A stretch of DNA of 64,000 nt from Vreelandella nigrificans (GTDB lineage: Bacteria > Pseudomonadota > Gammaproteobacteria > Pseudomonadales > Halomonadaceae). How positions within the stretch are numbered: the first letter of the stretch is position 1; each line of letters starts with the position of its first letter. This document shows, piece by piece, positions 24,445 to 34,002 of the stretch. The stretch is taken from the NCBI RefSeq assembly GCF_002374315.1, contig NZ_NWUX01000006.1, forward strand, positions 127,947 through 191,946, in the 5' to 3' direction. The position numbers and the translations under genes are program-made. The notes under the pieces are model-generated. The model was not told where the DNA came from. It searched no databases and saw nothing but the letters and a program-made list of their open reading frames with translations.

Positions 24445-24711
24445 TTATGCTGCCTGTACCTCAATACGGCGGGTACGGTGGCTATCTTTCTTGGGCAGCG
24501 TTAGCGTCAGTACGCCGTTGACGAGAGTGGCGCTAATGGCATCACTGTCCACTTCGTGACTGAGGTTAAAACGCCGCGCAAAACGCTGGCCGCGAACCTC
24601 GGCGTGCAGCGCGCTCAGCCCTTCAGGCATATTCAGCGCTATCTCACCCTCCAGGCTTAACACGTTGTTGTCGAGTTCTACTTTAAGCGTCTCGTTGGTG
24701 ACGCCGGGCAT
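24445..24711 (-). pseudogene. Hsp20/alpha-crystallin small heat-shock protein, N-terminally truncated remnant
   Basis: Only the C-terminal ~85 residues of an alpha-crystallin domain are present (KVELDNNVLSLEGE...RRFNLSHEVDSDAISATLVNGVLTLTLPKK). Homology stops abruptly at ~24711, where TonB-dependent receptor homology begins on the opposite strand. Confidence 0.65.
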
Positions 24712-24714
24712 AGA

Positions 24715-25840
24715 GTGATGCGGGTCAATGAATCTACCGGAGCACTAACTCGCCGTGCTGATGCCAACTACGGCTTTGACCGGCGCGTACAGTACACCGC
24801 CTGGGATACCACAGGTAGCGCCACTCTGGCAGGTATGCGCCACGACTTCACCATCGGTGTAGATCATGAGCGCCAGCAGGATTATCTGGCCGAGGTGTAT
24901 CGCGGCACAGCGGTGAGCGATCAGAATATATACGACATCAGTTACGGCGGCCTTAACCTGGATAGCAATAGCCTCAGATGAAGTGAGCACTACCGGGGTG
25001 TATGTGAGTGACCGCTGGCACCTTAACGAGCGCTGGATACTGGGGCTAGGTGGGCGTTATACCCACTATGAACAACTCGGCGGCCGCGGACAGAACTTCA
25101 TCACTGAGACCGATATTAGCGACAATATCTTCCTACCGTCGGTCAGCTTGCTGCATCGTCTAACCCCAGAGACCTCCGTTTACGCTAGCTACAGTGAGGC
25201 CTTTGTGCCCAATGGCGCCGACAGCGATACAGGGCAAACGCTAGACCCGGAGCATAGCAAGGGCAGTGAAATTGGGGTGAAGCATCTATGGAACGACCAA
25301 CTATCGCTAGCCGTTGCACTATTTGATATCCGCAAAGAGAATATTGCAGTCTCTGACAACGGTGTCACCCGCACAATAGGCGAAGCAGGCTCCCAGGGTG
25401 TGGAGCTAACGATCTCCGGTCAGTTAACCGATCAGTTATCGCTATTGGGGTCTTATGCTTATACCGACACTGAAGTGCTAAAAGACACCGCTGGCACTCA
25501 GGGCAACCGGCTCAGCAACTCCGCACGCCATACCGCCAACCTTTACTTAGCTCACGACCTAACCACTGCACCAGAACTGGGTAACTGGCGTGTGGGCGGC
25601 GGTGTACGCTACGTGGGTAAACGCGAAGGCGATGCTAACAACAGCTTTCAGCTAGACGCTTATACCGTCGCCGATGCGTTTATCGGCTGGGATACCCCCT
25701 GGCTGGGCGACAACCTGCACCTGCAGCTCAATGCCAAGAACCTATTTGATACTACTTACTACCCTTCAAGCGGCGGCAACACGCGGGTAGTAGTCGGCAA
25801 TCCACTGGAAGTTAGTCTTCAGGCGTCGGTGAGGTTTTAG
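24715..25840 (+). pseudogene. TonB-dependent receptor, C-terminal beta-barrel fragment lacking the plug and N-terminal half, with a frameshift near 24980
   Basis: Two ORFs in different frames (24715-24981, 24983-25840) both with TBDR barrel homology; terminal ...SLQASVRF with C-terminal Phe; no TonB box or plug. Confidence 0.7.
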
Positions 25841-25938: not shown

Positions 25939-28900
25939 TCAGTCAGTATTAACTCCCCCCGGTTTTACCTTCCCCCACTGGCCAACCCCTTCCGCAATTA
26001 AGCTTAACTGGCGAACCACCAAGGCACCGGTCTCTTCATTGCCACCGGTTAGTTGCCGACGTTGGAACTCACGTTTGATATCTGCCCAGCGCTGTTTTTC
26101 CTCTTCGCTTAAGGTGCCTCTCAGCTCTTTCAGCTTGAGCAGATTCTCTTCGGCCCCTTGGGTTAACAGCTGCGCTTCACCGACGTAATGATCATCAATG
26201 ATCGCTTCAAGCTCGTCGTCGCTGAGTATCGGCGACATCTTTTCCGCCAAGCGATTCATATTGCGGTAGCTGCCCTGTAGGCGGAATGACGGCTCCGTCC
26301 GGTACTCGTCAGCCTGGGCGCTGGAGGCGATATACTGCTGATTCACGCGCAGCACCACTTCACGTGCTTTAAACATACTCTTCAGCACCGCCACGATCTC
26401 TTCTCGCTCTGCGGCGCTATAGTCGTGTTCAAAGTCGGTGCTCGGCACCTCGCGGCCCATGGCGATATCAACAAAGCGGTAGAAATCGTCCATGCCCCGC
26501 GTGGCCAAAGAGGCGAGCACCGTATTGGCACTCATGGCGTTCTCAATGTAAGAGAGCGCAAACACCTCTTCCATGCCGCTTAATACATCACCCAGGTTAT
26601 AAACGTCGGCGCGGTTAGCCAGCATGTCGGGCACTTTGAACACGTCGCCGCTTTCGGTGTAAGGGTTACCCGCCATGGCGATACAGAAGCGCTTACCGCG
26701 CATATCGTAGGTTTTAGTACGCCCGTTCCAGATACCGTCTACCCGCCGACTGCCATCGCATAACGAGATAAATTTCTGCAAAAACTCAGGATGGGTATGC
26801 TGAATATCATCCAGATAGAGCATAACGTTGTTGCCCATCTCAAAGGCGAGGTTGAGCTTGATCAGCTCGGCCCGGGCGGTGGAATGAGTAGCAGCATCAG
26901 GATCCAGCGAGGTCACATCATGACCAAGGCTGGGGCAGTTAATCTTCATAAAGATCAGCCCCAAGCGGTTCGCCACATACTCCATTAGCGTGGTTTTACC
27001 GTAGCCAGGTGGCGAAATCATCATCAGCAAACCGCTGTTATCCGTTCGCCTTGTATCGCCCACCGTGCCCATCTGCTTAGCCAGGTTATCGCCAATAATG
27101 GGTAGGTAGCTTTCGGTAATCAGCTTGTTGCGCACAAAGGAGTTGAGCGGTTTAGGTAGGTACTCTTCTAGCCGCAACCGCTCCCGCTGCTCGCGTAAAA
27201 TCAGCTGACGACGCTCTTGCAGTGCCGTCCAGTCGCGTATAACGACCTGCTCATGGTGGCGCAGTCGCTCCTGAAAGTCATCGAGTTGAAACGTTAGCTC
27301 CTGCTGCTCAAGGCGCCCATGCTGCCCCAGCAAGCCAGTAACGGTGAAAGCTAGCTCGACATTATGGGGAGCGGTGCTTAACCGGTCAGCCGTGTTAAGC
27401 ATGGCAATCGCTTCAGGCAGGTAGTGCAGCAACGCCTCTTGCTTGGCTTGCCCCGCGTGGGCCTGTAGCCAGTGGGAAGTGATCACCCAGCGGGCGCCGG
27501 GATTACCCGCAACCACCGCCAAGGCTTCTTGAAAATGCGCGTAGTGGCCCTGCTGCTGCATGGAGGTGGTAAAGCTCTCTACCAGGCTGGCGGCGTACTG
27601 GGTGACCGGAAAACGCTCGCCCTCTTCAGCCAACTGGCGCACCAGAAAATCAGTGGCACTGCTTATCTCACTCACCGAGCAGTTGATCTGCTGGGCCGAT
27701 ACAAAGGCACCAAGCTGCGGCTGCACTTCCTGGATCAAGGCGTTTAACAGATCCTCGTTATTCATAATGCGGCACAGGATACCCGCCGATAGACAGCGGG
27801 TGCGCAGGTTGCGGGTCGCCTCTTCATCATGGATGCGGTCGGCCCAGAACAGCATCGCCAGCGCCCGGGACAGTGGCCCAAATCCTAGCAAACCAGCACT
27901 TTGGCGTGCTGGCCATAGAGTGCGTACGATGTGCGCAGCATCGTGATCGTGGATACCTTTTTCGTAGCTTTCGCGATAGCGCGGCGAGGCAAAATTGGCA
28001 ATCTGCCGCTGAAGCTCGCTGAAATCTTCGACATTAACTGGCTTGGCACCGGGCTTCGCCAACTCGTCCATAAAACGATAGGCAAGGTACTCAGCGCGAT
28101 AAACAGTGGGGCTTTCGGAAGGCAGCAGCATTCCCCAGTAATCTTGCAGTTCGGTCAGCCGCTCATCTTCCAACGGCTCGTAATACTGGGTGCCCGTCAG
28201 GTGCAGCATGATGCGCTCTTGGCGCGGCACCAGGGTTAAATCGAGATGCTGCTGGTTGACGCTGAAGCGGTGGCGCGGCCCTAAGCGAATAACATCGCCA
28301 CCGGACTCATAGATATCGGAGCGGTCGCGCACGCTACGCATGGCAGCATCTTGGGAGGAGCGTAGACGCCCGGCGATATCATCCGCCTCAAGGTTACCGC
28401 CCATTTCGCGTAGCTCATCGATCATGCTACGCACTTTACCTACCATGGCATCCGCCGCGAAGAAGCTATGTAGCTCTTCCAGCGTTTCAAAGCGTTCCGT
28501 GCGCCGCTCCACATTGGCCAGGATTCTCTGACTGGCGTCGGTTAGAGTGGAGACCCGGCGTTGACGTTCATCCTGCAACTGCTGGCGACGTGCTTCGATG
28601 CTTTCATGGGCACTTTCACGCTGCTCAAGGATAGTGGTCAAAAATTCATCAAATTCGCCGAACTGACTCTCCAACTCCTGGAGTTGGTCGAGTATGCGGG
28701 TCATTAACTGATCGCAGTCGTCGGGTTCCCGCAGCGCACCCACGCCGTTAGCCAAGCTCTGCTCAAACAGCCGAATCTGGGCCGCAAACTGCGCCTGGGC
28801 TTCTGCGCTCCCCTGCTCTCTTAAACGGATCTCAGCCTCGGAGCGCTGCTGGTTGATCGAGGCATAGATACTGGAGATATTCTCGGTAATCCGCGTCTGT

Positions 28901-30876
28901 TCGATGGCATCGCCGCCGGACATTGACGATAGCAGCCCTTGGATCATATCCAGGCCCGCAGTCAATTCGCGATAGCGCCCTACGCACTCTGCCAACTGCT
29001 GGCGATTTTCCGCCTCACCTACCTGCTCTTTTAGTGCTGCCAGGGTTTCCCGGTAGCCGTCCAAGGCTTCAGGTTGAGCAAGAAAGCTGAAGGTCTGCTG
29101 GGTAAGCGACTGCTCCGCTTTATCCAGCGCTTGTTCCAACGCCTGCAAGCGCTCTTCATCCAGGTAGCGGCGCTCGCGTAGCGCCATTAGCCGCCCACGA
29201 TGGTCGCGTAGGTGTTTCAGGTAGGTGACGAATAGGTCGGGGGTTTTCCAACTGCTCGGCTTTAGCTCCCTCAGCAGCGCCGTCTGCTGTTGCTCAACCT
29301 CGTCTAGCGCTTGGGCAGTCTGGGCACGAATCGCCTGAACTTTCTCATACTCATCGAGCATCAGCTCAGCGGTGTGCTTTAGCTGTTCAAGCGCGGCATG
29401 AATGGTTTGAAAGTCAGCTTCACCAATCCAGTGGAACTGGTTCAGCGTGCGGTCGACCCGACGAATAATAGCGTTAAAGTGCCGCTCAGATGCCTGCTGC
29501 TCGTTAGCGAGCTGCACAATGCTATTGAGCTCGGCAATGCCACGCACCAGATCAGGGTTGCCGATTCGGCCTAGTGGCGTGTCGTTACGCACCGCATCCT
29601 GGGCATGAAAACGCTCCGACATAAAGGGCGTTGCCCATACCTGGATGGGGTGAACCAGCGTTGGCTCGTCTTCGGCATAAAAAATCGCCAGGTGGCCGCT
29701 TTCAAGTATCGCCGCACCATGCCCCACCATAGGGGTATCGACCTGCTTGCGGATCAAATTATAACGGTAAAGCACCACCTGCCCAGTTTGCGGCGCGTAG
29801 AAGATATACAGAACATCTTCTCCGTTTGGCGAGCGCACCATGCGCTTGAAACGCAGGTCTTCCTCGGGTACTTCGTAGGTGGTCAACTCACCGGTATTTA
29901 AATAGTATCCTGAAGGGAAAATCAGGCCGTGGTTTTCCGGCAGCTCAACCACCGAGCCCGCCATGGCATCAACACGTTTAACGTGCTGCTCGGCACGATT
30001 AAAAACATAGTAGCGCCACTGTTTCTCGTTGAAGGGCAAAATGCGGATCAGCACCACCGCGCCAAGATCAGCATATTCAAAGGTGGCATCATCCAGCGAC
30101 TGAGAGTCAGACTCTACAGGGTCGGTAAAGATACCCTCGCCGCTGCTGGTGTTGTTCTCAATCTTGAAGGTAATGTTGCCGCGCAGGTTATCAACGAAGA
30201 CGGTATCAAGGATATTCAAATGGGGGGCGCGGCCCTGCTCTTGCATATCCCGGCCTGCTGTCTGCCAGGGGAAAGCGAAGCGGTCAGGAAAGGTCAGGTC
30301 GCGCTCACCGCGGTTATCGATATAGCGGCTCACCTCGCCGCTGGCGGCTAATTCCCAACGGAAAACGCGCAGGTCGCTTAGCTTTTCACCTATTTGAAAA
30401 GCAATCAGCAGTTTGTTGTTAAGGGTGACCAGTTGAACCAGCGTGGCATGACTGTAGTATTTCTGGAGTTCTTTGAAATCTTGAACAAAGCGGCTCTCGG
30501 TGAGAAAGCTATCCGCCATTGGCGCTTCGCTTAACTCAAGCCCCTCTTCATCATCTTTAAGGTAGTAGAGCGCAAAGATATCGGTCGCTTCTAATGCTTT
30601 ACGCAGCCCCAACTGCACATTGAAGCCAAACAGAATTTGCTCGCCAATGCGTACCATATCGCGAGCAATGGCGTTATTTTCGGTGCGTACCCGGGCCCTG
30701 CCCAGCAACGACATGCTACTGCTACCGAAAACCTCAGCTCGGGCTTCGTTCAGTTTACCGATCGACGCGCCCAGTTCACCGCCTTGGGTTCTCAGCCGCC
30801 GCTGAATCGTCTCGAATGCGGTGCTTTCTCTGACAATGTTTTCAACCGAAGAGTGCTCCTTCGACATAGTGTTCAT
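25939..30876 (-). CDS. Giant (1645 aa) multidomain protein of unknown function: beta-rich N-terminal domain, ~450-aa coiled-coil region, helical region, then a MoxR/AAA_5-like AAA+ ATPase near the C-terminus
   Basis: Single uninterrupted ORF; Walker A ISPPGYGKTTL (~nt 26988-27012), Walker B VMLYLDDIQ, AAA_5-like CIAMAGNPYTESG...VPDMLANRADVYNL; co-oriented with and 158 bp downstream of yqiK; the second ATG at 30867 has the better RBS. Confidence 0.8.
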   Translation of the reverse strand: MNTMSKEHSSVENIVRESTAFETIQRRLRTQGGELGASIGKLNEARAEVFGSSSMSLLGRARVRTENNAIARDMVRIGEQILFGFNVQLGLRKALEATDIFALYYLKDDEEGLELSEAPMADSFLTESRFVQDFKELQKYYSHATLVQLVTLNNKLLIAFQIGEKLSDLRVFRWELAASGEVSRYIDNRGERDLTFPDRFAFPWQTAGRDMQEQGRAPHLNILDTVFVDNLRGNITFKIENNTSSGEGIFTDPVESDSQSLDDATFEYADLGAVVLIRILPFNEKQWRYYVFNRAEQHVKRVDAMAGSVVELPENHGLIFPSGYYLNTGELTTYEVPEEDLRFKRMVRSPNGEDVLYIFYAPQTGQVVLYRYNLIRKQVDTPMVGHGAAILESGHLAIFYAEDEPTLVHPIQVWATPFMSERFHAQDAVRNDTPLGRIGNPDLVRGIAELNSIVQLANEQQASERHFNAIIRRVDRTLNQFHWIGEADFQTIHAALEQLKHTAELMLDEYEKVQAIRAQTAQALDEVEQQQTALLRELKPSSWKTPDLFVTYLKHLRDHRGRLMALRERRYLDEERLQALEQALDKAEQSLTQQTFSFLAQPEALDGYRETLAALKEQVGEAENRQQLAECVGRYRELTAGLDMIQGLLSSMSGGDAIEQTRITENISSIYASINQQRSEAEIRLREQGSAEAQAQFAAQIRLFEQSLANGVGALREPDDCDQLMTRILDQLQELESQFGEFDEFLTTILEQRESAHESIEARRQQLQDERQRRVSTLTDASQRILANVERRTERFETLEELHSFFAADAMVGKVRSMIDELREMGGNLEADDIAGRLRSSQDAAMRSVRDRSDIYESGGDVIRLGPRHRFSVNQQHLDLTLVPRQERIMLHLTGTQYYEPLEDERLTELQDYWGMLLPSESPTVYRAEYLAYRFMDELAKPGAKPVNVEDFSELQRQIANFASPRYRESYEKGIHDHDAAHIVRTLWPARQSAGLLGFGPLSRALAMLFWADRIHDEEATRNLRTRCLSAGILCRIMNNEDLLNALIQEVQPQLGAFVSAQQINCSVSEISSATDFLVRQLAEEGERFPVTQYAASLVESFTTSMQQQGHYAHFQEALAVVAGNPGARWVITSHWLQAHAGQAKQEALLHYLPEAIAMLNTADRLSTAPHNVELAFTVTGLLGQHGRLEQQELTFQLDDFQERLRHHEQVVIRDWTALQERRQLILREQRERLRLEEYLPKPLNSFVRNKLITESYLPIIGDNLAKQMGTVGDTRRTDNSGLLMMISPPGYGKTTLMEYVANRLGLIFMKINCPSLGHDVTSLDPDAATHSTARAELIKLNLAFEMGNNVMLYLDDIQHTHPEFLQKFISLCDGSRRVDGIWNGRTKTYDMRGKRFCIAMAGNPYTESGDVFKVPDMLANRADVYNLGDVLSGMEEVFALSYIENAMSANTVLASLATRGMDDFYRFVDIAMGREVPSTDFEHDYSAAEREEIVAVLKSMFKAREVVLRVNQQYIASSAQADEYRTEPSFRLQGSYRNMNRLAEKMSPILSDDELEAIIDDHYVGEAQLLTQGAEENLLKLKELRGTLSEEEKQRWADIKREFQRRQLTGGNEETGALVVRQLSLIAEGVGQWGKVKPGGVNTD

Positions 30877-30904
30877 CCTGAAAAAGTGCTCACTTGAAAT
30901 AGCA

Positions 30905-30935
30905 AAGACCGCAATTGGGTGACAGTTGCGGTCTT
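30905..30935. other. Stem-loop in the yqiK-to-ATPase intergenic spacer
   Basis: AAGACCGCAA-N11-TTGCGGTCTT perfect 10-bp stem. Confidence 0.4.
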
Positions 30936-31034
30936 AGGCTTTTACGAAAACTGCCTGGGTAGGTCATCGGCCGCTTGGCGCGATACTACCGGCAAGGCTG
31001 GGGCAGTTCCCACGGTAGAGAGCCGCCCTATCCT

Positions 31035-32984
31035 TTAGGCAGATTCGGAGGATTTGCCAGAACTCATAGCACGATTCGCCAAGCCCGCCAGGGTAGCTTG
31101 CAGTGCTGGTGACTTATCGAGCACCCCTTGAACCGCTTTACCGTAGCCTAGGCCCGCGGTGAGTTTTTCAAACACATCACTATCGCCACCTATCAGCTCA
31201 AACTTGGCATTGTGCATTGCGGCAGCCATTACCTTGCCATTTTCGAGCATACCGATGCGCTGGGCTTCGATTTGCGCCATGACTTCTTTTTCGTGAACTT
31301 CCAGGTTCATACGGAACTCTTCGAAGTGGCGAGCTTCTTCAGACATATTGTCGTAAGCGCGCAGTTTCTCGACCAAGCCATTGGCTTCGGCTTTGGCCAT
31401 TGCTTCCCGGGCCTGTGCTTTAGCAGTGCCCAGTTTCTCCTCGCCCATCGCTTCTGCTTCAAGGCGTTGTTCAAGAATACGTACTTCCGCCAAGCCAGCA
31501 TCTTCGTCAGCTTTCGCGTTAGCTGTTTTAACCTCGGCCTGGGCAAAGCCTTCACTACGCTGGGCATGAGCACGCGCTTCCAGCACTTGTGCTTCGGCAA
31601 GCCCGTCTGCAGCAGCAAGGGCTTGATGGCCGCGTGCCTGCTTCTCTTCTGCCGTCGCACGCTTCTCTGCTGCATCCAGCTCGGCTTGTGCCCGAATAAC
31701 AGTCTCTTCCGCTTCCAGCTTGGAGCGCTCGAACACTGCTTCTGCTGCACGTACTTCTTTCAGTTTGCGCTCTTCTGCTTCGGCTTGAGCTGCGGTCAGG
31801 CGAGTTACCTTCTGACGTTCAGCTTCAGCGCGGTTGCGTACATCGTTAATGTTCTCTTCTTCTTCAGCCACGTTGCGCTCAACCGCAATACGCTGGCTGG
31901 TAATGTCGGCAATCTCTTTGCGCTCTTCTTCCAGCGCTTTTTCCATGCCGATTCGTTCAATTTCTACCGCACGTTCACGGGTAACATCCTCAAGCTCTTT
32001 GGCCTGACGAATCCGTACCTCTTCGATCTGTACCGCACGCTCGCGAGCCTTAGTAGCCATTTCAATCTGGCGCAGCTTGTTCTCTTCAGCAATCGCCAAC
32101 TCTTCATCGGTTTTAATCCGCGCGGCTTCGCTTTTCGAACGCTCTTGCTGGAGCACCTGCTCGGCTTCAGACTGTTCACGAGACTGCAGACTTTCAATTT
32201 CACGACGCTGACGCGCTTCGGCGTCTGCCTGAGTGCGCTCCAGCTCTAACGCTGCTTCACGAGCCGAGACATTCTTGCGCTGAATCTCCAGCTCTTGGTC
32301 GCGTTCCAGACGGTTGGTTTCAACATTGTGCCGAGCAGTAATCTCGGTGATGCATTTAATACCTTCCGAATCCAGAATATTGTTCGGATCCAGCGAGCTT
32401 TTCGGCGTTTGTTCTAAGTAGTCAATCGCAACGTCTTCAAGAATATAGCCATTAAGATCCTGACCAATGGTATGAACAATGGCGTCGCGGAACTGCTGGC
32501 GCTCTTCGAAGAGTTGCATGAAGTCCATCTTTTTACCGACAGTCTTCAATGCTTCGCTGAACTTGGCGTTAAACAGCTCATTAACAGCATCACGATCTGA
32601 CGCACGACCAACACCCACGGACTTAGCAACACGTAAGACATCGTCCGCCGTAGCATTAACCCGCAAATAAAATGCCACGCTGATATCAGCACGTAGGTTG
32701 TCCCGGCAAATCAGTCCCTCTTTACCCGTACGGTTAAGCTCAAGGGTGATCACCGAGATCTTCATGATCTCTGCACGATGCACAACAGGCAGCACCATGG
32801 CGCCGGTAAAATAGACCTTCGGTATCGTGGAAAGGTCATTAACGATTAAAGCCTGGCCTTGATCTATTTTCCGATAAAAGGCTTTAAACAGTGACAATAT
32901 GGCAAGCAGTGCAATCACTATTACACTGATGCTTACCAATAGCGGCATGACCCACGACAAATTCATCTTTATCTCCTGCAGCAA
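31035..32984 (-). CDS. yqiK: Flotillin-like SPFH/band-7 protein with a long Ala/Glu-rich coiled coil (YqiK family)
   Basis: N-terminal TM, SPFH domain (residues ~40-230), then ~350 aa of heptad EA/ER repeats and a flotillin C-terminal region; 5 bp downstream of yqiJ. Confidence 0.85.
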   Translation of the reverse strand: MLQEIKMNLSWVMPLLVSISVIVIALLAILSLFKAFYRKIDQGQALIVNDLSTIPKVYFTGAMVLPVVHRAEIMKISVITLELNRTGKEGLICRDNLRADISVAFYLRVNATADDVLRVAKSVGVGRASDRDAVNELFNAKFSEALKTVGKKMDFMQLFEERQQFRDAIVHTIGQDLNGYILEDVAIDYLEQTPKSSLDPNNILDSEGIKCITEITARHNVETNRLERDQELEIQRKNVSAREAALELERTQADAEARQRREIESLQSREQSEAEQVLQQERSKSEAARIKTDEELAIAEENKLRQIEMATKARERAVQIEEVRIRQAKELEDVTRERAVEIERIGMEKALEEERKEIADITSQRIAVERNVAEEEENINDVRNRAEAERQKVTRLTAAQAEAEERKLKEVRAAEAVFERSKLEAEETVIRAQAELDAAEKRATAEEKQARGHQALAAADGLAEAQVLEARAHAQRSEGFAQAEVKTANAKADEDAGLAEVRILEQRLEAEAMGEEKLGTAKAQAREAMAKAEANGLVEKLRAYDNMSEEARHFEEFRMNLEVHEKEVMAQIEAQRIGMLENGKVMAAAMHNAKFELIGGDSDVFEKLTAGLGYGKAVQGVLDKSPALQATLAGLANRAMSSGKSSESA

Positions 32985-32989
32985 GGCAA

Positions 32990-33622
32990 TTAATCGGCTA
33001 AGCCGGCTTCGAAAGCTATTTCAGAAATGACCCAGTACGCATCTTCGTTTTCAAGGTACTGAATCATGATGGCACGTTCACCACGCGCTAATGGCGGGTC
33101 GCTACGCACTTGCAAAATAAGATGGTCACCATCGATATGTGCATCGGCTCGGCCATGCTCTTTGGTTGCAGTTGCTGAGCGAATTGTGCACAGCCTACCT
33201 ATTAGGCGCTGCTCGGTGGGCTTAGTCTGAGCCGGGCGAAACAGCGGCCGCAAAGGGCGAATTAGAAAGGAGGTCACTACAGTGGCAATAGCAAGACCCA
33301 GAATTAGCACGACGCCATTAAACAGCCACAGCAATAAGCCTGGAGTAAGCTGTATACCCAAGAGCAGCGTTGCAAAGTAGCTAAATAGCCAGCCGGTCAA
33401 TGCCAGCAGAGTGACTACCAGGGGCAGAGGGACTCCATGCAACCCCAACGTTGCCAGTAAGCCTCCAAAATCTAGCGAGCCACCATCACCCAAATCACCC
33501 TCTACAGTATCGCTATCGACTAACCCTGATAGCGAAATTAGCCAGTAAATAACCGCAACACTTAGCAATATCGTAAAAATGACAGTAGGAAAGGTGGTGA
33601 TAATAGAAATAAATAGAGGCAT
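32990..33622 (-). CDS. yqiJ: YqiJ / NfeD-like membrane protein with C-terminal OB-fold (DUF1449 type)
   Basis: MPLF... N-terminus, Gly/Asp-rich loop GDLGDGGSLDFGG, multiple TM helices then a soluble C-terminal beta domain; conserved partner of yqiK. Confidence 0.65.
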   Translation of the reverse strand: MPLFISIITTFPTVIFTILLSVAVIYWLISLSGLVDSDTVEGDLGDGGSLDFGGLLATLGLHGVPLPLVVTLLALTGWLFSYFATLLLGIQLTPGLLLWLFNGVVLILGLAIATVVTSFLIRPLRPLFRPAQTKPTEQRLIGRLCTIRSATATKEHGRADAHIDGDHLILQVRSDPPLARGERAIMIQYLENEDAYWVISEIAFEAGLAD

Positions 33623-33853
33623 ACGCCTGAGACCCAGTTAGGCTAAACATAAGCGCCATCACTACTGGATGTCGCCATGAATGAATGCCCTTTTTCATTT
33701 CTGCTGAGAAAGGGCACTGTTATGAAAGTAGTATTCAGCCGCCATCACCTACGGCTATGCTTTGGGCACTTGTTTATGGCTTGAACACGGTTTGGGCTAA
33801 GCATTCAATTCCCGCAGTTTCACAACCTAAGCGCAGAGAAAAGCTACAGCATC

Positions 33854-33929
33854 TCTTCGCAAAATCAATTCAGTCATCAACTTTTAAGAGATCTCTTACA
33901 AAATCTATAGCGAATGTCTTACAAAATCT
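33854..33929. repeat. Three copies of the TCTTACAAAATCT-like motif (two perfect, 23 bp apart, plus one degenerate) upstream of the yqiJ operon
   Basis: TCTTcgCAAAATCa (33854), TCTTACAAAATCT (33894), TCTTACAAAATCT (33917). Confidence 0.5.
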
Positions 33930-34002
33930 GCCATTTTGGACGGCTAGGCCTGATCACCAACGACGAAGCGGTGTTCAAACAAAGAAAGCTTTGTGAAGGG
34001 GT

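What the first reader, a model, noticed from the sequence alone, without database searches (positions are those of the whole stretch)
25939..33622. Three-gene locus yqiJ (NfeD-like) - yqiK (flotillin) - 1645-aa AAA+ giant protein: a candidate undescribed membrane-microdomain-associated ATPase system
yqiJ and yqiK are a well-known conserved pair and are translationally coupled here with a 5-bp gap. What is not part of any described flotillin operon is the third, co-oriented gene 158 bp downstream. It encodes a 1645-aa protein with a MoxR/AAA_5-type ATPase module, preceded by ~450 residues of coiled coil and a beta-rich N-terminal domain. The long flotillin coiled coil and the giant protein's coiled coil could plausibly interact. 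The locus sits next to decayed gene remnants (Hsp20 and TBDR fragments), typical of variable or accessory neighbourhoods. I do not recognise the large protein as a member of any characterised family.
Basis: partly seen in the sequence, partly recalled or inferred. Interest (0 to 1): 0.8.

Follow-up and report, generated by a model that had tools for sequence, protein, structure and literature searches.

The report
Flotillin operon with giant AAA+ ATPase
The three genes are real and always travel together in bacteria, but they are the already reported and still mechanistically unstudied core of the Pseudomonas "BAC" / phage-shock-associated envelope-stress system, not an undescribed one.

Summary
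On the minus strand lie a YqiJ-like membrane protein (33622-32990), a flotillin-type SPFH protein (32966-31035) and a 1645-aa cytoplasmic AAA+ protein (30876-25939).

The functional-linkage idea is strongly supported. In 76 of 76 evaluable loci, spanning Proteobacteria, Myxococcota, Actinobacteria, Clostridia and Acidobacteriota, the giant gene sits directly downstream of this SPFH gene, and I saw the same order in Bacteroidota. In the plasmid collection, the same 13 records hold both the giant and the full-length SPFH subtype.

"Undescribed" is wrong. The giant is Pfam DUF3686 + DUF7902 + AAA, which NCBI names "DNA repair ATPase". Ravi et al. 2024 described this operon: YqiJ/YuaF, Band-7/flotillin and a beta-propeller/coiled-coil AAA+ ATPase, often with CesT-PspA. 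In P. aeruginosa the three genes are bacC, bacD and bacE (37/53/50% identity). There they are co-transcribed by RT-PCR and induced by phage infection.

New here:
- The AAA+ module is closest in fold to the MoxR clade (CbbQ, NorQ, dynein, midasin).
- The "coiled coil" models as a spectrin-like rod.
- A hairpin recurs in the SPFH-giant spacer.

Best mechanism, inferred: an ATP-driven remodeller working on a flotillin/PspA membrane scaffold. Biochemical function is untested.

The parts
32990..33622 (-). YqiJ-like (BacC-type) inner-membrane protein, 210 aa. Hydrophobic N-terminal ~124 aa with 3-4 TM segments, then a soluble C-terminal beta domain.
   Evidence: ORF and translation. Hydropathy. 37% identical to P. 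aeruginosa BacC, E=2e-34. Profile match to E. coli YqiJ, 95.5%. No Pfam hit above threshold. Present upstream of the SPFH gene in 73 of 80 loci.
31035..32966 (-). Flotillin-type SPFH protein (BacD/PaFlo3-type), 643 aa. One N-terminal TM, then an SPFH domain, a long Ala/Glu-rich helical region and a subfamily-specific C-terminal ~200 aa.
   Evidence: Band_7 PF01145 E=6.4e-12 on aa 1-246; the full-length query returns no Pfam family even at E<=10. 53% identical to BacD and 27% to E. coli YqiK. 60-81% identical to the Hahella, Marinobacter and Halomonas copies. Start codon and Shine-Dalgarno.
30877..31034 (-). SPFH-giant intercistronic spacer (158 nt), structured. It holds a hairpin at 30905-30935 (AAGACCGCAA...UUGCGGUCUU) followed by a U-rich tail at 30896-30904.
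   Evidence: Sequence. MFE -60.3 kcal/mol, z=-3.4. Comparable hairpins in five other genera. 45% of 56 spacers have z<-2. No sigma-70-like promoter reported in the spacer. A role as attenuator or mRNA stabiliser is inferred.
25939..30876 (-). Giant cytoplasmic AAA+ protein (BacE-type; NCBI 'DNA repair ATPase'), 1645 aa, or 1642 aa from the second ATG at 30867.
   Evidence: Pfam DUF3686 E=1.6e-173, DUF7902 E=3e-18, AAA E=3e-7. 98% identical to Halomonas/Vreelandella titanicae proteins. 50% identical over 1630 aa to P. aeruginosa PA3728/PA14_16190. No TM segment.
29632..30711 (-). Beta-propeller domain (aa 56-415), the core of DUF3686. About 27 strands, probably 7 blades.
   Evidence: AF2 model, pLDDT ~90. 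Foldseek hits to the propellers of Rrn6, Elp1, prolyl oligopeptidase and the clathrin terminal domain, E 3e-6 to 5e-4.
28309..29616 (-). Helical rod (aa 421-856, including DUF7902 at aa 603-687). It models as serial antiparallel helical bundles, spectrin-repeat-like.
27142..28299 (-). Middle domain (aa 860-1245): a small beta sheet plus a helical domain, with no recognisable relative.
26587..27069 (-). AAA+ alpha/beta core (aa 1270-1430). Motifs: Walker A SPPGYGKTT (aa 1288-1296, nt 26989-27015), Walker B LYLDD (D1356, D1357), a beta-hairpin before the sensor-1 strand, GNPYTE (N1404) and PDMLANRAD (R1422).
25942..26586 (-). AAA+ lid and C-terminal helical region (aa 1431-1645), including the invariant RTEPxFxLQGSYRNM motif.
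   Evidence: 51% mean identity for aa 1431-1600.

Best explanation
The locus is the three-gene core (bacC-bacD-bacE type) of a widespread membrane-associated system linked to the phage-shock (PspA) envelope-stress response.

Proposed working:
1. The YqiJ-like protein and the flotillin-type SPFH protein build an oligomeric scaffold on the cytoplasmic face of the inner membrane.
2. The 1645-aa protein is a soluble MoxR-clade AAA+ ATPase that presumably forms a ring.
3. Its beta-propeller and spectrin-like rod dock it to that scaffold or to clients held there.
4. ATP hydrolysis then remodels the scaffold, by assembling or disassembling the SPFH and/or PspA polymers, or it extracts and unfolds client membrane proteins during envelope stress.
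5. A hairpin between the SPFH and ATPase genes probably lowers ATPase expression relative to the scaffold.

Shown here or in cited papers: gene content, domain folds, obligate synteny, orthology to bacCDE, and co-transcription and co-induction in P. aeruginosa.

Inferred: physical interaction, ring formation, the substrate, and the role of the hairpin.
For: Synteny:
- The SPFH gene lies directly upstream and co-oriented in 76 of 80 loci. The other 4 are cut off less than 400 bp upstream.
- In Actinobacteria the SPFH stop overlaps the giant's start by 4-8 bp.
- Bacteroidota and an unclassified ankyrin-rich Logan contig keep both upstream genes; in the Lachnospiraceae locus only the YqiJ-sized gene is called, with an uncalled ~2.1-kb gap before the giant.

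Reverse test: 320 plasmid records carry a flotillin homologue. Only 13 carry the full-length subtype, and these are exactly the 13 with the giant, adjacent to it in the four records where I compared the coordinates.

Link to PspA: PspA plus YjfI/CesT genes lie beside the trio in 39 of 80 loci, in Flavobacterium and in P. aeruginosa.

Topology: one TM followed by a KAFYRK stretch in the SPFH protein, and no TM in the giant, which I read as placing both on the cytoplasmic side.

ATPase:
- The core is 71% conserved, with invariant Walker A, Walker B, sensor-1 and Arg motifs.
- Its fold is nearest the ring-forming remodellers CbbQ, NorQ, dynein and midasin.

Literature:
- Ravi et al. predict the same operon and membrane-dynamics role (PMC11237479).
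- RT-PCR shows bacD-bacE co-transcription, and BacB-F rise 6- to 13-fold in a bacA mutant (PMC10948618).
- PA3728-PA3732 are induced by phage infection (PMC12041424).

Precedent, from established knowledge: SPFH cages corral AAA+ machines (HflK/C-FtsH, prohibitin-m-AAA).
Against: - No interaction, ATPase activity or phenotype has been reported for any BacE-type protein.
- Deleting the flotillin (PaFlo3) in P. aeruginosa gave only about 20% less biofilm and no stress phenotype (PMC13086221).
- This window lacks pspA/yjfI, the PLD gene and a sigma-54 site. The link to PSP here rests on orthology.
- Walker B is DD rather than DE, so hydrolysis could be slow or regulatory.
- MoxR ATPases normally pair with VWA proteins, and no VWA gene is seen in the eight annotated neighbourhoods.
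- The spacer hairpin could equally be a full terminator, which would make the giant a separate transcription unit in this genome.
Confidence: 0.6

Rival explanations
1. It is a membrane-level anti-phage defence or abortive-infection system. The flotillin/YqiJ module would sense envelope perturbation by phage, and the AAA+ protein, sometimes with a PLD-family effector, would execute the response.
For: - PA3728-PA3732 are up-regulated in all phage-infected P. aeruginosa samples (PMC12041424).
- A PLD/HKD gene follows the giant in 14 of 80 loci and in P. aeruginosa.
- TerB-like and Zn-ribbon accessory genes occur in some loci.
- The system is present on megaplasmid pQBR103.
- Its distribution within Pseudomonas is patchy and was attributed to horizontal transfer (PMC13086221).
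- The immediate flanks differ between close Vreelandella relatives, one with Cas2 and PAAR nearby.
Against: - PADLOC gives only weak LmuB hits over the helical-rod region, E~1e-4; the better one has no stretch that passes on its own.
- There is no match in 50,697 phage records, and only 13 of 72,556 plasmid records match, mostly chromids or megaplasmids.
- The core trio carries no nuclease, protease or toxin effector.
- The P. aeruginosa protein heads a 90%-identity cluster of 3222 member sequences, so it is widespread in that species.
- Induction by phage is what a general Psp-type envelope-stress response would also show.
Confidence: 0.12
2. The giant is a DNA-repair ATPase, as its database name says (SMC/Rad50/RecN-like), and its position next to the flotillin genes is functionally irrelevant.
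For: - Pfam describes DUF3686 as 'ATPase involved in DNA repair', and NCBI names the family 'DNA repair ATPase'.
- The protein has a long helical rod.
- Weak hits to the Lamassu SMC-like protein LmuB.
Against: - The ATPase is an AAA+ fold of the MoxR/dynein clade, not an ABC/SMC head.
- No SMC, nuclease or DNA-binding Pfam domain is found.
- No paper in the library mentions DUF3686, so I found no experiment behind the name.
- The gene context is uniformly membrane and PSP related.
- The rod models as spectrin-like bundles rather than an SMC-type hairpin.
Confidence: 0.03
3. The linkage is coincidental or merely positional. The giant is an independent transcription unit with its own unrelated function.
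For: A 158-nt spacer with a stable hairpin and a U-rich tail separates the SPFH gene and the giant in this window. In a few loci, unrelated genes are inserted between the two (L020, L023).
Against: - 76 of 76 evaluable loci keep the adjacency across phyla, with overlapping stop and start codons in Actinobacteria.
- The 13-of-13 reciprocal co-occurrence in plasmids.
- RT-PCR read-through and proteomic co-regulation in P. aeruginosa.
- No promoter-like site in the spacer.
Confidence: 0.02

Closest known systems
Pseudomonas aeruginosa BAC (biofilm-associated cluster) operon bacABCDEF, PA3732-PA3727 / PA14_16140-PA14_16200 (Mace 2008, PMC2587700; Wallart 2024, PMC10948618)
   Same: The window genes are orthologues of bacC (37% identity), bacD (53%) and bacE (50% over 1630 aa), in the same order and orientation.
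   Different: The window lacks bacA (YjfI/CesT-like), bacB (PspA) and bacF (PLD), and has no sigma-54 site upstream. Even in Pseudomonas, only bacA and bacB have reported phenotypes. BacE has no assigned function.
PSP-associated operon of Ravi et al. 2024 (PMC11237479): CesT/Tir-PspA + YqiJ/YuaF + Band-7/coiled-coil/flotillin + beta-propeller/coiled-coil/AAA+ ATPase
   Same: Identical domain architectures and gene order. The paper explicitly notes abbreviated operons with only the flotillin protein, the YqiJ/YuaF protein and the AAA+ ATPase. My Flavobacterium locus L087 reproduces their Dokdonia example.
   Different: That description is purely computational and gives no clade for the ATPase. 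This work adds the MoxR-clade assignment, the equivalence with Pfam DUF3686/DUF7902, the obligate 1:1 linkage to a dedicated SPFH subtype, and the spacer hairpin.
HflK/C-FtsH, prohibitin-m-AAA protease and SLP2-YME1L (SPFH cages around AAA+ machines)
   Same: An SPFH-family scaffold genetically or physically coupled to an AAA+ ATPase at a membrane. This is a functional analogy drawn from established knowledge.
   Different: FtsH is a classic-clade AAA+ with TM helices and a protease domain. The giant has no TM and no protease, belongs to the MoxR clade, and carries a propeller and a rod. The HflK/C cage is periplasmic, whereas this system is predicted to be cytoplasmic.
E. coli yqiJ-yqiK and B. 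subtilis yuaF-floT flotillin pairs
   Same: A membrane protein with a C-terminal beta domain followed by a flotillin-type SPFH protein. YqiK similarity E=8e-37; YqiJ profile match 95.5%.
   Different: E. coli has no giant ATPase downstream; sibD/ibsD and hldE follow instead. Identity is only 27%, and YqiK aligns only to aa 4-439. The C-terminal ~200 aa are specific to the giant-linked subtype.
MoxR-family AAA+ ATPases (CbbQ, NorQ, RavA) and the dynein/midasin AAA modules
   Different: Canonical MoxR proteins are about 300 aa and work with a VWA/MIDAS partner, and none is seen here. Pfam AAA_5 is below its cut-off. Walker B is DD. The module is embedded in a 1645-aa multidomain protein.
ESCRT-III / Vps4
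   Same: PspA belongs to the ESCRT-III superfamily and often neighbours the trio. An AAA+ ATPase encoded alongside a membrane-remodelling polymer is the same logic.
   Different: The giant is not a Vps4 homologue: it has no MIT domain and is not classic-clade. A 2025 review states that a Vps4-like ATPase appears absent in bacteria (PMC7619361). Any equivalence is hypothetical.

Membership tests
SPFH / Band 7 superfamily (middle gene) | Band_7 (PF01145) domain above Pfam's gathering score | tested here: met
   46.3 bits against a cut-off of 23.6, E=6.4e-12, on aa 1-246. The full-length query returns no Pfam family.
Flotillin family (YqiK/FloT type) | N-terminal membrane anchor, SPFH domain, long helical region and a flotillin C-terminal domain; significant similarity to YqiK | tested here: inconclusive
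   27% identity to E. coli YqiK over 442 aa, E=8e-37, and one N-terminal TM. No Pfam family of any kind is detected in the C-terminal 189 aa at E<=0.1. NCBI calls the Streptomyces orthologues 'flotillin family protein'.
YqiJ / short NfeD family (first gene) | Sequence membership: Pfam NfeD or YqiJ_N above threshold, or BLAST similarity to YqiJ | tested here: not met
   No Pfam hit for the window protein. Only 1 of 31 homologues hits YqiJ_N, at E=0.008. BLAST against E. coli YqiJ gives E=0.56.
YqiJ / short NfeD family (first gene) | Same architecture (multi-TM N-terminus plus soluble C-terminal beta domain), profile-level homology, and a position upstream of an SPFH gene | tested here: met
   hhalign of the 31-sequence profile against YqiJ: probability 95.5%, E=1.6e-8, 154 columns. 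Hydropathy. Position.
DUF3686-DUF7902-AAA family (NCBI 'DNA repair ATPase') | PF12458 and PF25472 above threshold, followed by a C-terminal AAA+ module, in a protein of about 1600-1900 aa | tested here: met
   PF12458 577.8 bits, PF25472 66.2 bits, PF00004 31.4 bits. 780 clusters at 50% identity match at E<=1e-3; the full-length entries among the 150 listed are about 1500-2000 aa.
MoxR / AAA_5 clade of AAA+ | Fold closest to MoxR, dynein and midasin modules, with a beta-hairpin before the sensor-1 strand | tested here: met
MoxR / AAA_5 clade of AAA+ | Pfam AAA_5 (PF07728) or AAA_3 above the curated cut-off | tested here: not met
   AAA_5 scores 19.9 bits against a cut-off of 22. AAA_3 is not reported.
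MoxR / AAA_5 clade of AAA+ | Cognate VWA/MIDAS partner encoded nearby | tested here: not met
   No VWA family appears among the Pfam-annotated neighbours in eight loci. The window flanks hold none.
BAC / PSP-associated flotillin-AAA+ system | Contiguous, co-oriented orthologues of bacC, bacD and bacE | tested here: met
   37%, 53% and 50% identity, in the same order.
BAC / PSP-associated flotillin-AAA+ system | Adjacent CesT/YjfI-PspA dyad (bacA, bacB) | tested here: not met
   Locus-built HMMs find none anywhere in the 64-kb window, yet they find the dyad in 39 of 80 other loci. Ravi et al. allow abbreviated operons without it.
BAC / PSP-associated flotillin-AAA+ system | PLD/HKD gene (bacF) downstream and a sigma-54 promoter upstream | tested here: not met
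   A PLD gene is present in 14 of 80 loci but not in the window. No -24/-12 match lies in 33623-34002.
BAC / PSP-associated flotillin-AAA+ system | Co-transcription of the genes | not testable with these tools
   Shown by RT-PCR only for P. aeruginosa PA14. Here the evidence is limited to the absence of a promoter-like site in the spacer and the presence of a hairpin.
SMC/Rad50/RecN-type DNA-repair ATPases | ABC-type ATPase head split by an antiparallel coiled coil; DNA-related domains or context | tested here: not met
   The ATPase is a single contiguous AAA+ module. The rod resembles spectrin repeats. The context is membrane and PSP related.
Catalogued anti-phage defence systems (PADLOC) | Significant match to a defence-system protein model | tested here: not met
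   The only hits are LmuB at E=1e-4 and 3e-4, over the helical-rod region (aa ~455-843); the better one has no stretch passing on its own. The other two proteins have no hit.

The most novel reading that the evidence does not exclude
The BacE-type giant is the missing bacterial counterpart of Vps4 or NSF. It would be a MoxR-clade AAA+ ring that uses its propeller-tipped spectrin-like arms to grip, and then disassemble or recycle, flotillin cages and/or YjfJ-type PspA (ESCRT-III-like) polymers at the inner membrane. That would give bacteria an ATP-driven membrane-scaffold cycle that current reviews say they lack.
Probability: 0.2. Interest if true: 0.8.

Novelty: already known. Interest (0 to 1): 0.35.

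Why it matters
What bacterial flotillins do, and how PspA/ESCRT-III-like polymers are regulated without a Vps4, are open questions. A large ATPase that never occurs without its own dedicated flotillin gives an enzymatic handle on both, through Walker mutants, substrate traps and cryo-EM of the complex.

The system is present in P. aeruginosa, where the operon affects biofilm and virulence and responds to phage. It is also present in Stenotrophomonas, Proteus, Xenorhabdus, Streptomyces and Myxococcus.

Practically, the widespread database name "DNA repair ATPase" looks wrong and misleads annotation. The full-length flotillin also returns no Pfam family, so automated pipelines under-annotate the locus.

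For this window specifically, the finding is an orthologue of a reported system, so the novelty lies only in the added detail.

Tried and rejected
- Full-length Pfam and NCBIfam scans of the SPFH and YqiJ-like proteins gave nothing. The N-terminal fragment had to be scanned separately.
- Sequence search of the PDB found no solved relative of either the giant or the SPFH protein.
- PADLOC gave only weak LmuB hits over the helical-rod region, so I rejected a known-defence assignment.
- Literature searches for DUF3686, for YqiK+YqiJ+ATPase and for flotillin+MoxR+PspA returned nothing.
- A sigma-54 consensus scan found no site upstream of the operon, and window-wide counts were at chance level.
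- The simple terminator scan missed the spacer hairpin, probably because its loop exceeds the scan's 8-nt limit; folding found it.
- The C-terminal region of the SPFH protein matched no Pfam family.
- An exact-sequence lookup of the closest NCBI orthologue, P0002, was not on record.
- My 'longest ORF' shortcut mis-picked antisense ORFs in high-GC loci. I corrected this by using the tblastn match coordinates.
- The DNA-repair reading and the coincidental-linkage reading were considered and rejected (see rival explanations).


Full report
**1. Observation**

The window carries three co-oriented ORFs on the minus strand:
- 33622-32990, 210 aa
- 32984/32966-31035, 649 or 643 aa
- 30876-25939, 1645 aa

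The middle protein hits Pfam Band_7 (E=6.4e-12), but only when its N-terminal 246 aa are scanned alone. Full-length scans return no Pfam family, even at E<=10.

The SPFH gene most likely starts at the ATG at 32966. A GGAG lies 5-6 nt upstream, and homologues begin MxLSW. The gap to the upstream stop codon is therefore 23 nt, not 5.

The giant most likely starts at its second ATG (30867). AGGA lies 8 nt upstream, and NCBI orthologues are 1642 aa.

Hydropathy gives a TM-rich N-terminal 124 aa for the first protein, one N-terminal TM for the SPFH protein, and none for the giant.

The closest proteins are from Halomonas/Vreelandella titanicae, at 97-98% identity.

**2. The giant protein**

It is not family-less. 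Pfam finds DUF3686 (PF12458, aa 35-482, E=1.6e-173), DUF7902 (aa 603-687) and AAA (aa 1285-1359). NCBI names the family "DNA repair ATPase". No paper in the library mentions DUF3686, and no PDB sequence relative exists.

AlphaFold2 models of the two halves are confident, with mean pLDDT 86.5 and 86.0. They show:
- an N-terminal helix
- about 27 strands (aa 56-415) that Foldseek matches only to beta-propellers: Rrn6, Elp1, prolyl oligopeptidase and clathrin
- an unassigned domain of about 400 aa
- an AAA+ module and its lid

Walker A (SPPGYGKTT), Walker B (LYLDD), GNPYTE and PDMLANRAD are invariant in 16 members that are 31-53% identical. The AAA+ core is by far the most conserved part, at 71% mean identity against 26-37% for the other domains.

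However, Pfam AAA_5 is sub-threshold, and no VWA partner is encoded nearby.

**3. Is the linkage real?**

A profile-guided scan of one genome per species found at least 584 species with a relative, and 80 loci were retrieved. They cover:
- Gamma-, Beta- and Zetaproteobacteria
- Myxococcota and other "delta" lineages
- Actinobacteria (Nocardiopsis, Amycolatopsis, Micromonospora, Actinoplanes)
- a Clostridia MAG
- Acidobacteriota

I built HMMs from the window and first loci and searched all ORFs of these loci. In 76 of 80 loci an SPFH gene (E<=1e-160) lies upstream and co-oriented. It is immediately upstream except where a small accessory gene, or in L020 and L023 a mobile insertion, separates the two. 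The other four loci end less than 400 bp upstream of the giant. A YqiJ-like gene precedes the SPFH gene in 73 loci.

In Actinobacteria the SPFH stop overlaps the giant's start by 4-8 bp.

Members only 25-35% identical, from Flavobacterium and an unclassified ankyrin-rich contig, keep both upstream genes. In the Lachnospiraceae locus only the YqiJ-sized gene is called, and an uncalled gap of about 2.1 kb precedes the giant.

The reverse test also holds. tblastn of the SPFH protein against 72,556 plasmid records finds 320 records with a flotillin homologue, but only 13 where the match covers at least 80% of the query. Those 13 are exactly the records that hold the giant, and the two genes are adjacent in the four records where I compared coordinates.

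The other records are mostly E. coli conjugative plasmids, with about 30% identity covering only aa 27-434, and they lack the giant. E. coli K-12 yqiJ-yqiK is likewise followed by sibD/ibsD and hldE, not by an ATPase. YqiK aligns only to aa 4-439.

The giant is thus tied one-to-one to a dedicated flotillin subtype, distinguished by its C-terminal ~200 aa.

**4. Already described**

Ravi et al. 2024 (PMC11237479) report an operon that combines:
- the CesT/Tir-PspA dyad
[quoted passage not shown] - a YqiJ/YuaF membrane protein
- sometimes a PLD hydrolase

They note that abbreviated operons with only the flotillin, the YqiJ/YuaF protein and the ATPase are more widespread. Their Table S3 example is from Dokdonia. 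My Flavobacterium locus has the same layout and carries DUF3686.

The P. aeruginosa protein P0326 heads a 90%-identity cluster of 3222 member sequences and is 50% identical to the window giant over 1630 aa. Its locus reads DUF2170 - PspA - 213 aa - 688 aa - giant - PLDc_2. This is the published bacABCDEF "biofilm-associated cluster".

[quoted passage not shown] PA3728 is listed as "ATPase" (PMC8190622). The window SPFH and YqiJ-like proteins are 53% and 37% identical to BacD and BacC.

Experimental findings on the P. aeruginosa system:
- Wallart et al. 2024 showed RT-PCR products across every junction, including bacD-bacE. BacB-F rose 6- to 13-fold in a bacA mutant, and they proposed a sigma-54 promoter (PMC10948618).
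- Mace et al. 2008 linked bacB (PspA-like) to biofilm, swarming, rhamnolipids and virulence (PMC2587700).
- PA3728-PA3732 are induced in all phage-infected samples in one study (PMC12041424).
- Deleting the flotillin alone gave only about 20% less biofilm (PMC13086221).

No paper assigns a function to BacE.

**5. What the window has and lacks**

It is the bare trio. No PspA, YjfI, PLD, TerB-like or Zn-ribbon gene lies anywhere in the 64 kb. No sigma-54 -24/-12 match lies in the 380-nt upstream region.

Across the 80 loci:
- PspA+YjfI accompany the trio in 39 (33 co-oriented, 6 divergent).
- A PLD gene follows the giant in 14.
- A PF13453-type Zn-ribbon protein occurs in 13.
- A 76-86-aa TerB-like ORF occurs in 9, sometimes between the SPFH gene and the giant.

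In a relative whose giant is 85% identical, the immediate flanks differ (Cas2, DUF1176, PAAR, Zn-ribbon), but more distant synteny returns.

The system is absent from phage records and rare on plasmids, where the hits are mostly chromids or megaplasmids, including pQBR103.

**6. The spacer**

The 158-nt SPFH-giant spacer folds well (z=-3.4). It contains a 10-bp hairpin at 30905-30935 followed by a U-rich tail, and no sigma-70-like site.

Strong hairpins of unrelated sequence lie in the same spacer, mostly within about 60 nt of the SPFH stop, in Vreelandella TE19 (a textbook terminator shape), P. aeruginosa, another Halomonas, Marinobacter and Hahella.

Over 56 spacers of 50-350 nt, the median z is -1.8, 45% have z<-2, and 55% have an uninterrupted stem of at least 8 bp.

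P. aeruginosa shows read-through. I therefore infer a partial terminator or an mRNA-stabilising structure that keeps the scaffold protein more abundant than the ATPase. This is unproven.

**7. Mechanism**

Shown:
- an obligately linked trio
- orthology to a stress-responsive operon

I read the hydropathy results as placing both the SPFH protein and the giant on the cytoplasmic face. The strong conservation of the ATPase motifs suggests an active MoxR-clade ATPase carrying a propeller and a rod.

Inferred: the YqiJ-like and SPFH proteins form a membrane scaffold. This follows established knowledge that SPFH proteins form rings and cages, as in QmcA-YbbJ, HflK/C and flotillin. The giant would oligomerise into a ring, dock through its propeller and rod, and use ATP in one of two ways:
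- remodelling the scaffold and/or PspA polymers, a Vps4-like logic
- handling client proteins confined there, an HflK/C-FtsH-like logic

I put about 0.9 on "one functional unit" and about 0.4-0.5 on this mechanistic picture. The combined figure is 0.6.

Rivals:
- Anti-phage defence, 0.12. Favoured by phage induction, the PLD gene and patchy distribution. Opposed by the lack of any PADLOC match, the lack of an effector in the core, and the gene's wide presence in P. aeruginosa.
- A true DNA-repair ATPase, 0.03. The name appears to have no experimental basis.
- Coincidental adjacency, 0.02.

**8. Verdict**

Novelty: already known, as a computationally described system with partial genetic study. 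It remains mechanistically uncharacterised.

The additions from this analysis are the strict bidirectional linkage, the MoxR-clade fold, the spectrin-like rod, the probable misnomer "DNA repair ATPase", and the recurrent spacer hairpin.

Noticed in passing
window 24445-24711 (-) and 24983-25840 (+): A truncated Hsp20 ORF (88 aa, matching profile positions 15-102) lies here. Next to it is a TonB-dependent-receptor fragment with only the C-terminal barrel (profile 170-436 of 436) and no plug domain. Both sit just downstream of the giant. A relative whose giant is 85% identical has PAAR, Zn-ribbon, TetR, ABM and UDG genes at this position instead (L092).
   Followed up: partly
window 30905-30935 (-); L092:8915-8950, L091:7894-7962, L002:7929-7964, L004:7928-7961, L001:7937-7960: Strong GC-rich hairpins of unrelated sequence recur in the SPFH-giant spacer across genera, mostly within about 60 nt of the SPFH stop. 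45% of 56 spacers fold with z<-2. This may be an attenuator that sets the scaffold-to-ATPase ratio.
   Followed up: partly
L013:9628-9867, L022:9608-9850, L055:9670-9909, L039:9567-9827 and five more loci: A conserved 76-86-aa ORF (MSEPRDYLEMSFRSIQCFANDGRLDV...) that looks TerB-like to me sits between the SPFH and giant genes, or nearby, in Pseudomonas and Lysobacter lineages. I did not run it through Pfam.
   Followed up: partly
L048:8448-9014, L057:9396-9929, L062:9394-9942, L001:13318-13869, L092:14384-14974 and others (13 loci): A ~180-aa double Zn-ribbon protein (PF13453 Zn_ribbon_TFIIB in the two Pfam-annotated copies) recurs next to the trio. It lies either between the SPFH gene and the giant or just downstream. 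It may be an accessory subunit.
   Followed up: partly
L023:6583-10000 and L020:7966-10000: Foreign genes are inserted between the SPFH gene and the giant. By my reading of the translations, L023 (Lampropedia) carries a NYN-like protein plus a nucleotidyltransferase/HEPN pair. L020 (a Zetaproteobacteria MAG) carries two tandem, nearly identical ~310-aa ORFs that look like Rpn/PD-(D/E)XK transposase-like genes. The junction evidently tolerates insertions.
   Followed up: no
L089 (pQBR103, NC_009444.1 85428-104329): The P. fluorescens SBW25 megaplasmid fuses a yjfJKLMC-like set (PspA, rhomboid, DUF2491, DUF350, DUF1190, glutathionylspermidine-synthase-like) directly to the trio in one co-oriented run.
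   Followed up: no
L004/L005:13322-18509: In Marinobacter the giant is followed, co-oriented, by a DUF1266 protein, a 913-aa protein with no Pfam domain, and an HSP70/MreB-like protein. This may be a second chaperone-type module.
   Followed up: no
P0282; L086 flanks: One distant family member (1876 aa) carries ankyrin repeats fused to the DUF3686-AAA architecture. The L086 contig that holds the most divergent homologue is rich in ankyrin-repeat genes, which hints at a host-associated organism.
   Followed up: no
window 31035-32966 (-): The full-length flotillin-type protein returns no Pfam or NCBIfam hit at any E-value, and the precomputed annotations of its homologues are also blank ('-'). 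Only the isolated N-terminal fragment scores. My guess is that the Ala/Glu-rich helical region triggers HMMER's composition filter. This is a systematic annotation blind spot for the family.
   Followed up: yes
one search hit list (P0001-P0012 versus P0098-P0100, P0112): Halomonas-group genomes carry two clearly separate lineages of the giant, one 82-98% and one 53-56% identical to the window copy. The second lineage has its own SPFH/YqiJ-like pair, next to clpB (L002). This suggests old paralogy or horizontal transfer.
   Followed up: no
literature, PMC8190622: PA3728, the P. aeruginosa orthologue of the giant, is listed among genes found mutated in cystic-fibrosis isolates in three independent studies.
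   Followed up: no
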